A DNA stretch of 64,000 bases from a virus (IMGVR_UViG_3300015050_001523:96001-160000), one strand, 5' to 3'. Counted from the first letter of the stretch, positions 2,649 to 39,160 are shown. A program made the numbers and translations. The notes: a model not told the origin generated them from the letters alone.

Positions 2649-2924
2649 TCATCGATACGGATGCGAAATTTTTTCTGAATATATTGTTCGTTGCGTATCA
2701 ACAATTAAATTCCAAGCGGCTATGGCATCAAGTTCACTTGAGTCTCCGCTAAACCAAATTGAATAAGAATCTTTATTGCGAAATTTGCCTTTGACAAAAT
2801 AATCTCTATTTTTAGTATGTTCTGTGACCGAACAACTAATAATTTCACGAACATCTAATGCTGTTTTTTCAACAGCATTTGGAAATGAAACAATTGGATT
2901 ATCCTGAATTGTTTGATTTGACAT
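2649..2924 (-). CDS. Hypothetical protein
   Basis: ORF directly downstream of tRNA-Glu. Confidence 0.6.
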   Translation of the reverse strand: MSNQTIQDNPIVSFPNAVEKTALDVREIISCSVTEHTKNRDYFVKGKFRNKDSYSIWFSGDSSELDAIAAWNLIVDTQRTIYSEKISHPYR

Positions 2925-2925
2925 A

Positions 2926-2997
2926 TGACCTTGCTGGGACTCGAACCCAGATTAGCGGCTTGAAAGGCCACCGTCTTAACCTTTAGACTACAAGGCC
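2926..2997 (-). tRNA. trnE: tRNA-Glu(TTC)
   Basis: Acceptor GGCCTTG/CAAGGTC, anticodon arm GTGGC-CTTTCAA-GCCGC, T-loop TTCGAGT. Confidence 0.95.
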
Positions 2998-2999
2998 AA

Positions 3000-3085
3000 T
3001 TTTTGGAAATGTTTGATGAAAAACGAAAAACGAAAATAATGAAAACTTGAAAACCATTTCACAAGCTTTCCAAACATTTCCAAAA
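3000..3085 (-). ncRNA. Inter-tRNA hairpin RNA, copy A
   Basis: 15-bp terminal inverted repeat TTTTGGAAATGTTTG/CAAACATTTCCAAAA enclosing CTTGTGAAATGGTTTTCA and a U-rich tract; related copy at 19285..19378. Confidence 0.6.
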
Positions 3086-3148
3086 TTCTCGCAGTCAGTA
3101 ACGAGCTGACATCTGGCCGTCGCCGATTTTTCATTAAACTATGCGAGA
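3086..3148 (-). ncRNA. Shrunken tRNA-like RNA
   Basis: Acceptor TCTCGCA/TGCGAGA+A, D-like TAGTTTAATG, short central arm, T-like arm GTCAG-CTCGTTA-CTGAC. Confidence 0.5.
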
Positions 3149-3730: not shown

Positions 3731-3760
3731 ACTATATCATCGAACCATTCGCTTGTCAAG
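3731..3760 (-). promoter_or_regulatory. Sigma70-type promoter for the tRNA cluster
   Basis: TTGACA-N17-TATAGT on the minus strand, followed by hairpin ATGCCTCGGAA/TTCCGAGGCAT. Confidence 0.7.
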
Positions 3761-19160: not shown

Positions 19161-19206
19161 TTTTATTTCCTTTTTTTGAAATAATTTATTTGATGTTAAA
19201 AATTTT

Positions 19207-19280
19207 TGCGTCCGATAGGAATTGAACCTATAACCTATGGCTTAGAAGGCCATTGCTCTATCCTGTTGAGCTACGAACGC
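19207..19280 (-). tRNA. trnR: tRNA-Arg(TCT)
   Basis: ATGGC-CTTCTAA-GCCAT anticodon arm; full cloverleaf. Confidence 0.95.
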
Positions 19281-19284
19281 ATAT

Positions 19285-19378
19285 TTAAGTGATAACTGAA
19301 AATATGAAAAGCGAAAAACCAAGAACAAGAAACGCAAGTGAAACCATTTTCACAAGAGTTTATTCAGTTATCACTTAA
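19285..19378 (-). ncRNA. Inter-tRNA hairpin RNA, copy B
   Basis: 16-bp terminal inverted repeat TTAAGTGATAACTGAA/TTCAGTTATCACTTAA enclosing CTTGTGAAAATGGTTTCAC and a U-rich tract. Confidence 0.6.
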
Positions 19379-19451
19379 TGCACCTAGATGGACTTGAACC
19401 ATCAACTTCCATTTTATAAGAATGGCACTCTAACCATTGAGTTATAGGTGC
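19379..19451 (-). tRNA. trnI: tRNA-Ile with TAT (UAU) anticodon
   Basis: GCACCTA/TAGGTGC acceptor, CCATT-CTTATAA-AATGG anticodon arm. Confidence 0.9.
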
Positions 19452-19780
19452 AGAAAAAATCTAGCCCGACCCCTGTTTACCATTACATTTCAATGGACCA
19501 AACCATTTGGTATGGGTAGAGTATCGAGATAGAAATAAGCCTCCCAGATTCCGTGGACCAACAATATCTTGCTCAAGGATATTGATTTATTTAATCGACG
19601 AGTCTGCCCCAAACATTTTCAATCAAAAACCAATTCGAAAACCCTTGGGGATTTTGGCTGCCAAGCTTCCCTGGCATCTCTTGAAGGATAGCATCTTCTG
19701 GCGAAGGGTCAAGGCTATCTTTCATCCTTTTTTTGGGCTGTTCTATCTAAACAATAAATGCAAATCTTATATCATAAGAT

Positions 19781-22652: not shown

Positions 22653-22958
22653 TCAATCAATTTCCCAAATTTTGGATCGGCTTTTAAGGGCTTGCAATTT
22701 TTGATTCAGCAATTCCGAATGAAGCTCGGAAGCAGCCCAACGCAAGGTCCGAGCACGCTCCCTCATTTCGGCTTCATACACCCCGCGCTTATAGCCAGAC
22801 GGGCGATCATTCGTCAAAGTTTTCTCTTGGCTTTCAAGGCGATCAGCTTCTGCGCGCCACCTAACAACAAGATCTTCGATTTTGGAATTCATTGTCCTGA
22901 ATCTTTCTTTCTTTTTTATTTGTTGAAATCCATGGCCCCGCTTTTGGAGCCTCTGCAC
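22653..22958 (-). CDS. Coiled-coil hypothetical protein
   Basis: ORF after tRNA-Arg; true start probably MNSKIED. Confidence 0.55.
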   Translation of the reverse strand: MQRLQKRGHGFQQIKKKERFRTMNSKIEDLVVRWRAEADRLESQEKTLTNDRPSGYKRGVYEAEMRERARTLRWAASELHSELLNQKLQALKSRSKIWEID

Positions 22959-39058: not shown

Positions 39059-39160
39059 TGCACCAAATAGGATTTGAACCTATATCCCTCCAGACAACGC
39101 TGGTAGCACTTAATTCTTGCAAAAATCAGTGCAGTGCTTTACCCATTAAGCTATTGGTGC
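39059..39160 (-). ncRNA. Atypical 102-nt tRNA (8-nt anticodon loop and 33-nt extra arm, or tRNA-Ile(GAT) with ~30-nt insertion)
   Basis: GCACCAA/TTGGTGC acceptor, GCTT-AATGGGTA-AAGC D arm and ATAGG-TTCAAAT-CCTAT T arm are all canonical. Confidence 0.75.

What the first reader, a model, noticed from the sequence alone, without database searches (positions are those of the whole stretch)
3000..3085. Conserved hairpin RNA sandwiched between tRNAs at two loci (3000-3085 and 19285-19378)
Seen: both elements sit within a few nt of flanking tRNA or tRNA-like genes and have a perfect 15-16-bp closing stem of entirely different sequence. Their interiors share CTTGTGAAA(A)TGGTTT(T)CA (a small hairpin) and GTTTTTCG(T/C)TTTTCAT. 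Different stems with a conserved interior look like covariation. Inference: a small RNA released by RNase P/Z processing of the tRNA operon. The closed stem plus pyrimidine-rich loop recalls Y RNA architecture or an Hfq/RNA-binding-protein sponge.
Basis: partly seen in the sequence, partly recalled or inferred. Interest (0 to 1): 0.7.

Follow-up and report, generated by a model that had tools for sequence, protein, structure and literature searches.

The report
Stem-closed small RNAs inside phage tRNA operons
A 322-kb freshwater phage has two related ~90-base hairpin elements, each filling the gap between two tRNA genes; they are probably cut out as stable small RNAs when the tRNAs are trimmed, but a relative lacks one, no other homologue was found, and their job is unknown.

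Summary
E1 (window 3001-3085) and E2 (19285-19378) lie on the transcribed minus strand of a 322.5-kb T4-like IMG/VR phage. Each lies within about 3 nt of a tRNA or tRNA-like unit on both sides. Each is closed by a perfect 15- or 16-bp stem. The stems are unrelated (10 of 15 pairs changed on both sides), but the cores are 43/48 identical. A covariance model built from E1 alone finds E2 as its best non-self hit.

There are only these two copies in the genome. I found no homologue in Rfam, IMG/VR, JGI metagenomes, GTDB genomes or about 45 related phage records. A relative (76% identical neighbouring protein) has a closely matching tRNA-Ile/tRNA-Arg pair with a 31-nt unrelated spacer and no E element. 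So E is an accessory insert and is not needed to process those tRNAs.

Best reading (about 0.45): a phage-specific small RNA released by RNase Z/BN-type and RNase P cuts. Its sealed ends would protect it, and its conserved hairpin and U-rich strand would be the working part.

The Y RNA idea fails three of five membership tests. The phage does, however, encode a Ro60/Rsr protein with YrlA-like RNAs in another tRNA array.

Earlier first-stage notes of this scan describe the same two elements on this genome. I found no note of them on other DNA.

The parts
3001..3085 (-). E1, whole element (85 nt): 15-bp closing stem, 55-nt core
   Evidence: Sequence. MFE -25.8 kcal/mol, z -5.3. Covariance model R1 scores it 117 bits.
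3071..3085 (-). E1 closing stem, 5' arm (UUUUGGAAAUGUUUG)
   Evidence: Pairs perfectly with 3001-3015: 15/15 Watson-Crick.
3001..3015 (-). E1 closing stem, 3' arm
3041..3070 (-). E1 inner hairpin P2 (about 13 bp with one mismatch and two G.U pairs, AUGG loop). It stacks directly on the closing stem and holds motif 1 (3050-3065).
   Evidence: MFE and suboptimal folds. Motif position. The G.U pairs form only on the minus strand; the plus strand folds 7 kcal/mol worse.
3016..3040 (-). E1 single-stranded U-rich tract on the 3' side. UUUUCR units recur every 7-9 nt from the inner hairpin's 3' strand onward. Ends in motif 2, GUUUUUCGUUUUUCAU (3016-3031).
   Evidence: Unpaired probability about 0.9, apart from a weak 2-bp hairpin. 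Motif position. The 3' part of the core after the UGG loop is 79% pyrimidine.
19285..19378 (-). E2, whole element (94 nt): 16-bp closing stem, 62-nt core
   Evidence: Sequence. MFE -25.5 kcal/mol, z -6.6. R1 scores it 29.6 bits.
19363..19378 (-). E2 closing stem, 5' arm (UUAAGUGAUAACUGAA)
   Evidence: 16/16 Watson-Crick with 19285-19300.
19285..19300 (-). E2 closing stem, 3' arm
19330..19361 (-). E2 inner hairpin P2 (GUGAAA/UUUCAC with AUGG loop, extended by C-G and AAAC/GUUU). Holds motif 1 (19341-19356).
   Evidence: This fold lies 0.7 kcal/mol above the MFE. Motif position.
19301..19329 (-). E2 U-rich 3' tract, with motif 2 GUUUUUCGCUUUUCAU (19304-19319)
3086..3148 (-). TL2, a 63-nt tRNA-like minihelix (7-bp acceptor-like stem plus T-like arm) that abuts the 5' end of E1
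   Evidence: Fold. Not called by ARAGORN or Rfam tRNA.
2925..2998 (-). tRNA-Glu(UUC), 2 nt downstream of E1
   Evidence: ARAGORN. Rfam tRNA 67.5 bits.
19378..19452 (-). tRNA-Ile(UAU); its last base is the first base of E2
19206..19281 (-). tRNA-Arg(UCU), 3 nt downstream of E2
3731..3759 (-). Sigma70-type promoter (TTGACA-17-TG-TATAGT, 11/12 matches) at the head of the operon tRNA-Ile, ORF75, tRNA-Gly, TL1, TL2, E1, tRNA-Glu
   Evidence: A 36-nt stretch 88.9% identical precedes the tRNAs in relative L417.

Best explanation
E1 and E2 are two paralogous, phage-specific small-RNA genes that occupy 'slots' in tRNA operons.

Inferred mechanism. Each is transcribed as part of the tRNA polycistron. 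Its 5' end is made when a host RNase Z/BN-type enzyme cuts after the discriminator of the upstream CCA-less tRNA or tRNA-like unit. Its 3' end is made when RNase P cuts at +1 of the downstream tRNA. The product is an RNA of about 87-98 nt. Its ends are locked in a perfect 15-16-bp helix with only 0-1 nt (5') and 2-4 nt (3') overhangs, which should resist 3' exonucleases.

The working part is the conserved core. It consists of a hairpin capped by an AUGG loop, coaxial with the closing stem, and a 25-30-nt single-stranded U-rich strand (UUUUCR units ending in GUUUUUCGYUUUUCAU). This most likely acts as a binding or titration platform for a protein or a complementary RNA. The closing stem needs only to pair, so its sequence is free to differ.

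The element is accessory: a relative has a matching tRNA pair without it.

Shown: the anatomy, the paralogy, the position, and the absence in a relative. Inferred: transcription, the cuts, the stability, and any binding partner.
For: - Position and strand. Both copies lie on the transcribed strand within about 3 nt of tRNA or tRNA-like borders on both sides. In the chain tRNA-Gly|TL1|TL2|E1|tRNA-Glu each unit is closed by its own terminal stem.
- Operon context. There is a promoter upstream, and no terminator is predicted on the transcribed strand near either element.
- Conservation pattern. The core is 43/48 identical while the arms are as different as random sequence yet still fully paired. 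E2 is the best non-self hit of a model built from E1 alone.
- Strand asymmetry. The E1 inner hairpin uses G.U pairs that form only on the minus strand (-25.8 against -18.4 kcal/mol).
- Slot logic. Elsewhere in this genome the closely packed tRNAs are only about 4-12 nt apart, so E fills a gene-sized slot and is not an ordinary spacer.
- Processing. The tRNAs encode no CCA and the phage has no RNase Z-type or CCA-adding gene of its own. Host endonucleolytic 3' trimming is therefore expected; this step rests on established knowledge of T4 CCA-less tRNAs and RNase BN.
- Precedents. T4 RNA C and RNA D come from the tRNA region and are stable, with unknown function (PMC3014915, PMC9697503). D. radiodurans Yrn2 is made in one precursor with tRNA-Asp and Yrn1 (PMC4201824).
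- Analogues. Other stem-closed units abut tRNAs in this and related phages: 6 cases against about 0.8 expected, or 3 against about 0.7 without E1/E2.
Against: - No RNA evidence is available.
- There are only two copies. No homologue turned up in Rfam, IMG/VR, JGI metagenomes, GTDB genomes or rsr-bearing relatives. Conservation therefore rests on one comparison.
- A relative's matching tRNA-Ile/tRNA-Arg junction lacks the element, so it is dispensable.
- All 31 arm pairs are Watson-Crick with no G.U. That pattern is what a DNA-level palindrome gives, not what a long-selected RNA helix usually shows.
- The core is low in complexity (U-rich heptads), which inflates apparent similarity.
- No binding partner or target could be identified.
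Confidence: 0.45

Rival explanations
1. DNA-level insertion with no RNA function. E is a palindromic insert or recombination scar that landed between tRNA genes in a genome that shuffles small cassettes often. The perfect arms are kept perfect by quasipalindrome template switching, a process well documented in T4. The shared core is similar because it was copied recently.
For: - Presence or absence differs between relatives at an otherwise matching tRNA pair.
- The arms are 31/31 Watson-Crick with no G.U, and both strands fold well.
- There are only two copies and no homologue anywhere.
- The core has its own short inverted ends (GUGAAA(A)...UUU(U)CAU) and is a low-complexity heptad repeat.
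Against: - A mobile element should keep its terminal repeats and vary inside. Here the reverse is seen.
- Both copies fit the tRNA borders to within 3 nt on both sides, which a random insertion would not do.
- The E1 inner hairpin is much better on the transcribed strand.
- The core motif pair is absent from three very large collections, so the element is not prolific.
Confidence: 0.25
2. Cis-acting processing module. The long helix (closing stem stacked on the inner hairpin, about 29 bp in all) is an RNase III site. The U-rich CGUUUUU repeats are RNase E entry sites. Together they separate and insulate neighbouring tRNAs, and the excised piece is then degraded.
For: - The near-continuous helix and the single-stranded AU-rich tract are seen in the folds.
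- RNase E cuts spacers of E. coli tRNA polycistrons, and RNase III takes part in T4 tRNA precursor processing (recalled from the literature, not checked here).
- A 23-bp perfect hairpin sits flush with the first tRNA of an array in a distant relative (L259:2291-2412).
Against: - The matching tRNA-Ile/tRNA-Arg pair in a relative has a plain 31-nt spacer.
- Closely packed tRNAs elsewhere in this genome are only about 4-12 nt apart with no such module.
- This reading does not explain why a 50-nt core is 90% conserved while the helix sequence is free.
Confidence: 0.15
3. Non-canonical Y RNA. E1/E2 are extra partners of the phage's own Ro60/Rsr protein. Their pyrimidine-rich loop would tether an effector such as host PNPase.
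For: - The phage encodes Rsr (533 aa; TROVE 34.9 bits and vWA_Ro60 55.2 bits).
- E1/E2 are 85-94 nt, with a long terminal stem and a pyrimidine-rich loop. This is the shape reported for Yrn2 and YrlB (PMC4201824).
- None of the 38 related records searched for the Ro60 vWA domain has it, and none of the 40 searched with the E model has E. This co-absence is weak evidence, because most of those records are fragments.
- Y-like RNAs of this phage and its relatives are also embedded between tRNAs.
Against: - No Rfam Y_RNA, YrlA or YrlB hit at E<=10.
- There is no CGAA or GNCGAA(N)G on the transcribed strand.
- The two stems share no handle, whereas known and scan-noted Ro partners share one (PMC4201824).
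- They lie 65-82 kb from rsr, not within 4 kb.
- Better candidates sit next to rsr (L411:14084-14189 and L411:14514-14608).
Confidence: 0.08
4. Small hydrophobic peptide genes. A GUG (E1) or GUG/AUG (E2) start in the inner hairpin opens a 22-24-codon frame that reads motif 2 in the same phase in both copies (RFSFFI and GFSLFI).
For: The frame is shared between the copies: the distance from the GUG to motif 2 differs by exactly 3 nt (my reading). The E2 product MKMVSLAFLVLGFSLFIFSVIT looks like a single membrane helix.
Against: - There is no Shine-Dalgarno sequence, and the start codon is buried in the hairpin.
- The E1 frame runs into tRNA-Glu before it stops.
- Any U-rich tract reads as Phe/Leu/Ser-rich.
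- The only substitution in motif 2 changes an amino acid, so nothing suggests coding constraint.
Confidence: 0.05

Closest known systems
Phage T4 RNA C and RNA D (species 1 and 2 RNAs; rnaC, rnaD)
   Same: Both are small stable RNAs encoded in the tRNA gene region of a T4-type phage, on the tRNA strand, packed against the neighbouring RNA genes (rnaD lies 1 nt after tRNA-Arg and rnaC 6 nt after rnaD). Their function is still unknown (PMC3014915, PMC9697503).
   Different: There is no sequence or shape relation. RNA C is a 139-nt tRNA-like RNA with a T arm, and RNA D (119 nt) has no strong fold. E1/E2 are 85-94-nt rods with a long perfect terminal helix and a U-rich bulge, and they come in two copies with unrelated stems.
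Bacterial and phage Y RNAs (Yrn1/Yrn2, YrlA/YrlB) with Ro60/Rsr
   Same: Size 80-130 nt, a terminal stem made from the 5' and 3' ends, and a pyrimidine-rich loop. Some are made in one precursor with tRNAs (PMC4201824). The phage has an rsr gene.
   Different: E1/E2 have no Rsr-binding motif and no shared stem. They are not near rsr and give no Rfam match. The phage's likely true Y RNAs lie next to rsr.
tRNA-operon spacer RNAs of E. coli that act as sponges (3'ETS-leuZ; metZWV internal spacers)
   Different: The E. coli pieces rely on Hfq, a terminator hairpin and pairing to known sRNAs. E1/E2 have no terminator tail, the host is unknown, and no complementary partner was found.
tRNA-linked pre-miRNA hairpins of murine gammaherpesvirus 68 (TMERs)
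   Different: That is a eukaryotic Pol III and Dicer pathway. Nothing here shows that the E stems are diced or act as guides.
PeSL (promoter-early stem-loop) cassettes of T4-type phages
   Same: Repeated regulatory modules in T4-type genomes that combine a conserved motif with a stem-loop of variable sequence (PMC2839356).
   Different: A PeSL is a strong sigma70 promoter with a short G/C stem-loop, followed by a Shine-Dalgarno sequence and a start codon. E2 has no acceptable -10 box, neither element scores as a promoter on the transcribed strand, and neither precedes an ORF.

Membership tests
Y RNA (Ro60/Rsr partner) | 80-130 nt, with a long stem formed by the 5' and 3' ends and a large or pyrimidine-rich loop | tested here: met
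   85 and 94 nt; 15- and 16-bp terminal stems. The core is 64-68% pyrimidine overall and 79% in its 3' part. Criterion from PMC4201824.
Y RNA (Ro60/Rsr partner) | Rsr/Ro-binding motif (GNCGAAN0-1G in bacteria, GGUCCGA in animals, CGAA in Thermus phage phiLo) near the 5' end | tested here: not met
   The transcribed strand of E1 and E2 has no CGAA. CGAA occurs only on the opposite strand. Criteria from PMC4201824 and PMC12135203.
Y RNA (Ro60/Rsr partner) | Encoded within about 4 kb of rsr on the same strand | tested here: not met
   rsr lies at G000 180146-181747. E1 and E2 lie at G000 99001-99085 and 115285-115378: same strand, but 65-82 kb away.
Y RNA (Ro60/Rsr partner) | Match to Rfam Y_RNA, YrlA or YrlB | tested here: not met
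   No such hit even at E<=10.
Y RNA (Ro60/Rsr partner) | A Ro60/Rsr protein present in the same genome | tested here: met
   A 533-aa ORF matches TROVE (34.9 bits) and vWA_Ro60 (55.2 bits), both over the curated cut-offs.
tRNA or tRNA-like RNA | Cloverleaf, or at least an acceptor stem plus T arm, detected by ARAGORN or Rfam RF00005 | tested here: not met
   Neither tool calls it. The cores show no significant similarity to any of the phage's 37 tRNAs or to TL1/TL2.
T4 RNA C / RNA D | Sequence or structure homology to rnaC or rnaD | tested here: not met
   The folds are different. No direct alignment was run; the judgement rests on fold and length.
Intrinsic terminator | Short G+C-rich hairpin with a 3-8-nt loop, followed by a U run | tested here: not met
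   No terminator is predicted at either element. The loops are 55-62 nt, and the stems are followed by AAU and AUA, not a U run.
PeSL / sigma70 promoter cassette | Conserved -35 and -10 boxes at 16-18-nt spacing, followed by SD and ATG | tested here: not met
   E1 has TTGTGA-17-CATTAT, but at the same place E2 has TTGTGA-17-TTTCTT. The scan lists no minus-strand site in either element. PeSL anatomy from PMC2839356.
MITE / small transposable element | Terminal inverted repeats conserved between copies, target-site duplications, many copies | tested here: not met
   The arms are unrelated (5/15 identical). There are two copies only. No flanking direct repeat is seen.
tRNA-spacer-derived sponge RNA (3'ETS-leuZ type) | Hfq binding and pairing to a defined sRNA or mRNA | not testable with these tools
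   The host is unknown and the phage has no Hfq. The best complement to motif 2 in the phage genome has 2 mismatches, which is no better than chance.

The most novel reading that the evidence does not exclude
E1/E2 are a bacterial-virus counterpart of herpesvirus tRNA-linked hairpins. The conserved core is a handle for a protein. The perfect 15-16-bp arms, different at each locus, are the payload. After release by RNase Z and RNase P, RNase III or another dsRNA enzyme would cut them to give locus-specific short duplex RNAs that act on host or rival nucleic acids. A close variant of this idea is that the sealed ends are joined by the phage's Rnl1-type ligase into a dumbbell RNA.
Probability: 0.05. 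Interest if true: 0.85.

Novelty: new member of a known kind. Interest (0 to 1): 0.4.

Why it matters
Phage tRNA arrays are usually read as codon-supply or anti-defence devices. This case adds to the evidence that they also serve as expression and processing scaffolds for other small RNAs. T4 RNA C and RNA D have been unexplained for 50 years, and Y-like RNAs lie beside phage Ro60.

A family whose core is fixed while its closing helix is free, and which is present in one phage but missing at the same junction of a relative, would be a simple test case. It could show what such 'passenger' RNAs do and how they are gained.

If it is only a palindromic insert, the lesson is a caution: perfect hairpins with 'compensatory' differences between two copies are not evidence of RNA function.

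Tried and rejected
- **Rfam.** The gathering scan of the window, and E<=10 scans of both loci, gave only tRNAs plus weak plant-miRNA-precursor hits that merely reflect a long hairpin.
- **Exact-motif scans.** I scanned IMG/VR with four patterns, JGI metagenomes and GTDB genomes. None of the hits I examined lay near a tRNA or was stem-closed. One IMG/VR hit (L074) lies in a NUMOD3-repeat homing-endonuclease ORF. That raised the idea that the E core is a relic of such a gene on the plus strand. The 24-aa plus-strand peptide of E2 has no Pfam hit and no BLASTP similarity to it, so I rejected the idea.
- **Relatives through neighbouring proteins.**
  - The 118-aa ORF found no relatives and the 75-aa ORF no homologue.
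  - The 294-aa gene and UvdE gave only distant, non-syntenic loci in IMG/VR.
  - The major capsid protein gave relatives of 60-87% identity, mostly fragments.
  - Model R2 found nothing significant in 40 such records (best 20.4 bits, not at tRNAs).
- **Records I could not read.** The 12.4-kb contig of the 76%-identical homologue P0122 had no DNA available. Records behind L413-L415 cannot be searched whole.
- **RNA runs.** No RNA holder was listed. The DNA runs held only short, nearly identical pieces of the same phage, with no informative variant in E1 or E2.
- **Promoter, PeSL and sigma54 readings.** Not conserved between the copies.
- **CRP-like TGTGA...TCACA site.** The spacing is wrong (my reading).
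- **tRNA pseudogene.** No significant similarity. The AAAUGGUUU hairpin resembles a D arm, but that 9-mer is not enriched in the genome (9-10 per strand against 7 expected).
- **Shared origin with the 227-nt leader, TL1 or TL2.** No similarity.
- **Arms copied from elsewhere, or antisense to phage genes.** Only 11-13-nt chance matches. The best complement to motif 2 is the start of a doubtful 54-codon ORF, with 2 mismatches.
- **Phage-encoded enzymes.** RNase III, RtcB, CCA-adding enzyme, RNase Z-type enzyme and Hfq: none found.

Full report
**Context.** The window is G000:C1:96001-160000 of a 322,518-bp IMG/VR virus record. The genome has 33.6% G+C and 37 tRNA genes by ARAGORN. It encodes a gp23-type capsid protein, so it is a T4-like jumbo phage, and earlier notes of this scan describe it the same way. 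In the first 24 kb of the window almost all ORFs and all tRNAs lie on the minus strand. The two elements must therefore be read on that strand.

**The observation.** On the minus strand E1 is window 3085 to 3001 and E2 is 19378 to 19285.
- E1 is closed by a perfect 15-bp stem and E2 by a perfect 16-bp stem. All 31 pairs are Watson-Crick.
- In either register only 5 of 15 pairs are the same in the two copies, and 10 are changed on both sides.
- The 55- and 62-nt cores align with 43 identities over 48 aligned bases. The alignment scores 42, against 15.2 +/- 2.7 for shuffled cores (0 of 2000).
- A covariance model built from E1 alone finds E2 as the best non-self hit in 64 kb (29.6 bits, E 5e-4).
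- Fuzzy motif searches and nhmmer find no third copy in the whole genome.
- Both elements fold far better than shuffles.
- Perfect inverted repeats of this size are rare. There are 6 with arms of at least 14 bp and a 25-110-nt loop, against a mean of 1.0 in 20 simulated genomes. Three of the others lie inside long ORFs.

**Anatomy.** The folds give one common shape.
- The closing stem P1 is stacked, with 0-1 unpaired bases between, on an inner hairpin P2.
- P2 has about 13-14 pairs with internal mismatches and is capped by AUGG. In E1 the stem is CUUGUGAA/UUUUCAAG plus GAAAG/UUUUC. In E2 it is GUGAAA/UUUCAC plus C-G and AAAC/GUUU.
- A 25-30-nt single-stranded, 79%-pyrimidine tract follows on the 3' side only. 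It is built from UUUUCR units and ends in GUUUUUCGYUUUUCAU.
- In E2 this fold lies 0.7 kcal/mol above the minimum. The alternative pairs GUGAAAA with the UUUUCAU of motif 2. The same alternative exists in E1, so the two conserved motifs are mutually complementary. Two sequences cannot decide between the folds.
- The E1 inner hairpin uses G.U pairs, and E1 folds 7 kcal/mol better on the minus strand than on the plus strand. This is the only strand-specific signal.

**Surroundings.**
- The E1 operon begins with a strong sigma70-type promoter (TTGACA-17-TG-TATAGT, 3759-3731).
- Its order is tRNA-Ile(UAU), a 75-codon ORF, tRNA-Gly, TL1 (a tRNA-like unit with a long insertion), TL2 (a 63-nt minihelix with a 7-bp acceptor-like stem and a T-like arm), E1 and tRNA-Glu.
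- From tRNA-Gly to tRNA-Glu the gaps are about 0-3 nt.
- E2 fills the gap between tRNA-Ile(UAU) and tRNA-Arg(UCU) (-1 and 3 nt).
- No terminator is predicted on the transcribed strand near either element.
- None of these tRNAs encodes CCA.
- Elsewhere in the genome the closely packed tRNAs are about 4-12 nt apart, so E takes up a gene-sized slot.

**Search for relatives.**
- Rfam gives nothing.
- Motif scans of IMG/VR, JGI metagenomes and GTDB genomes gave hits that, where examined, were all chance matches.
- A model of both copies (R2) finds nothing in four places: 40 related IMG/VR records, the phage's own main tRNA region, rsr-bearing relatives and L417.
- Public runs hold only near-identical DNA of the same phage, and no RNA holder was listed.

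**An informative relative.** The 294-aa gene just upstream of the E1 operon has a 76%-identical homologue on a 2-kb JGI contig, L417.
- There the gene is followed by a promoter stretch that is 88.9% identical over 36 nt to the E1-operon promoter region.
- Next come a leader, tRNA-Ile(UAU), a 31-nt unrelated spacer, tRNA-Arg(UCU) and an HNH endonuclease gene.
- blastn aligns the two tRNAs to the window's E2 locus at 84% and 86% identity. They are 40 nt apart in L417 and 105 nt apart in the window. R2 finds nothing in L417.
- Orthology is not certain. The L417 tRNA-Ile is 83% identical to the E2-locus copy and 79% to the E1-operon copy. The L417 tRNA-Arg is 74% identical to the E2-locus copy and 76% to the other tRNA-Arg(UCU) at 22954.
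- Even so, the same tRNA-Ile/tRNA-Arg pairing exists without E. E is therefore an accessory insert (or was lost in the relative) and is not required to mature these tRNAs.

**The Y RNA lead.** It lies inside the main tRNA region, 65-82 kb from E1/E2.
- About 340 nt upstream of rsr, right after tRNA-Leu(AAG), is a sub-threshold YrlA match (35.7 bits). It covers the permuted tRNA-like part.
- A syntenic relative with 65%-identical Rsr has a similar match (35.8 bits).
- One tRNA-Leu spacer further upstream lies a 95-nt stem-closed RNA that carries GGCGAAAAG.
- Rsr-bearing relatives also have stem-closed, CGAA-bearing units between tRNAs.
- So this phage lineage does express Y-like RNAs from tRNA arrays, as described for bacteria and some phages (PMC4201824, PMC12135203) and as noted before by this scan in other phages.

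E1/E2 nevertheless fail the defining tests. They have no CGAA-type motif on the transcribed strand, no stem shared between the copies, no proximity to rsr and no Rfam match. I therefore do not file them as Y RNAs. A looser functional link remains possible at low odds.

**What it most likely is.** Five features together are best explained by a small-RNA gene whose helix only has to pair and whose core has to keep its sequence:
- the flush fit to tRNA borders at both ends of both copies;
- the slot-like place in the arrays;
- the transcribed-strand bias of the inner hairpin;
- the strong contrast between a 90%-identical core and arms at random-level identity;
- the precedents of T4 RNA C and RNA D (PMC3014915, PMC9697503) and of Y RNAs made with tRNAs.

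Release follows from established enzymology and is inferred, not shown. RNase P cuts at +1 of the downstream tRNA. A CCA-less upstream tRNA or minihelix is cut after its discriminator by an RNase Z/BN-type enzyme. The phage encodes neither that enzyme nor a CCA-adding enzyme, so host enzymes would do this. The product would have sealed ends with 2-4-nt 3' overhangs, which are poor substrates for 3' exonucleases. The U-rich strand and the AUGG hairpin would then be the site that binds a protein or RNA. Which one cannot be told.

**Why I hold this at only about 0.45.**
- No expression data exist.
- The comparison rests on two copies.
- The element is dispensable in a relative.
- Its arms are perfect DNA palindromes without a single G.U pair.
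- Its core is of low complexity.

A neutral or selfish palindromic insert (0.25) and a cis-acting RNase III or RNase E processing module (0.15) remain live. Y-RNA-like (0.08) and small-peptide (0.05) readings are minor.

**Verdict.** The feature is real and beyond chance. It is a new, so far lineage-restricted member of the known kind 'small RNAs embedded in and released from tRNA operons'. Its function is unknown. Interest is moderate.

Noticed in passing
L411:12146-13747 (-) = G000:C1:180146-181747; L411:14084-14189 (-); both outside the window: The phage encodes a Ro60/Rsr orthologue (533 aa, TROVE plus vWA_Ro60) inside its main tRNA region. About 340 nt upstream, right after tRNA-Leu(AAG), lies a sub-threshold YrlA-like RNA (35.7 bits) that matches the permuted tRNA-like part. 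A relative with 65%-identical Rsr has a syntenic match (L413:5893-6032, 35.8 bits) and also carries RtcB.
   Followed up: partly
L411:14514-14608 (-) = G000:C1:182514-182608: A 95-nt RNA closed by a 10-bp stem lies between tRNA-Leu(UAG) and tRNA-Leu(CAA), 3 nt after the upstream tRNA. It carries GGCGAAAAG (close to the Rsr-binding GNCGAA(N)G) and a 13-bp inner hairpin (z -4.8). It is a likely second Y RNA of this phage.
   Followed up: partly
L259:2291-2412; L253:10962-11025; L413:1239-1401; L415:8623-8726: Other jumbo-phage contigs also have stem-closed units flush with tRNAs. One has a perfect 23-bp stem around 76 nt, directly before tRNA-Cys. One has an 11-bp stem after tRNA-Val. One is a 163-nt unit closed by a 10-bp helix between two tRNA-Pro genes. 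One unit with GGCGAAG and a T-like arm lies between tRNA-Pro and tRNA-Leu next to an rsr gene.
   Followed up: partly
L417:1098-1279: A relative (76%-identical 294-aa gene) has tRNA-Ile(UAU) and tRNA-Arg(UCU) only 31 nt apart, followed at once by an HNH endonuclease gene. The contig ends in what looks like the T arm of a further tRNA-like unit.
   Followed up: partly
G000:C1:9475-9543, 82211-82302, 247230-247291 (outside the window): Three perfect 16-bp inverted repeats around 30-60-nt loops lie inside long open frames (323, 256 and 1183 codons). This is more than chance predicts (about 1 per genome for arms of at least 14 bp).
   Followed up: no
window 39059-39160 (-): Rfam calls a 102-nt tRNA (56 bits) that ARAGORN does not report. 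It may have a long insertion or extra arm.
   Followed up: no
window 19453-19700 (-): An unusually G+C-rich stretch of about 230 nt with no ORF lies between promoter-like sites and tRNA-Ile(UAU). It contains a CCAAAUGGUUUGG hairpin, has no Rfam match, and shows no significant similarity to the E cores.
   Followed up: partly
window 2922-2925 (-): The ATG of ORF 2649-2924 follows the last base of tRNA-Glu directly, so this mRNA's 5' end may be made by tRNA 3' processing.
   Followed up: no
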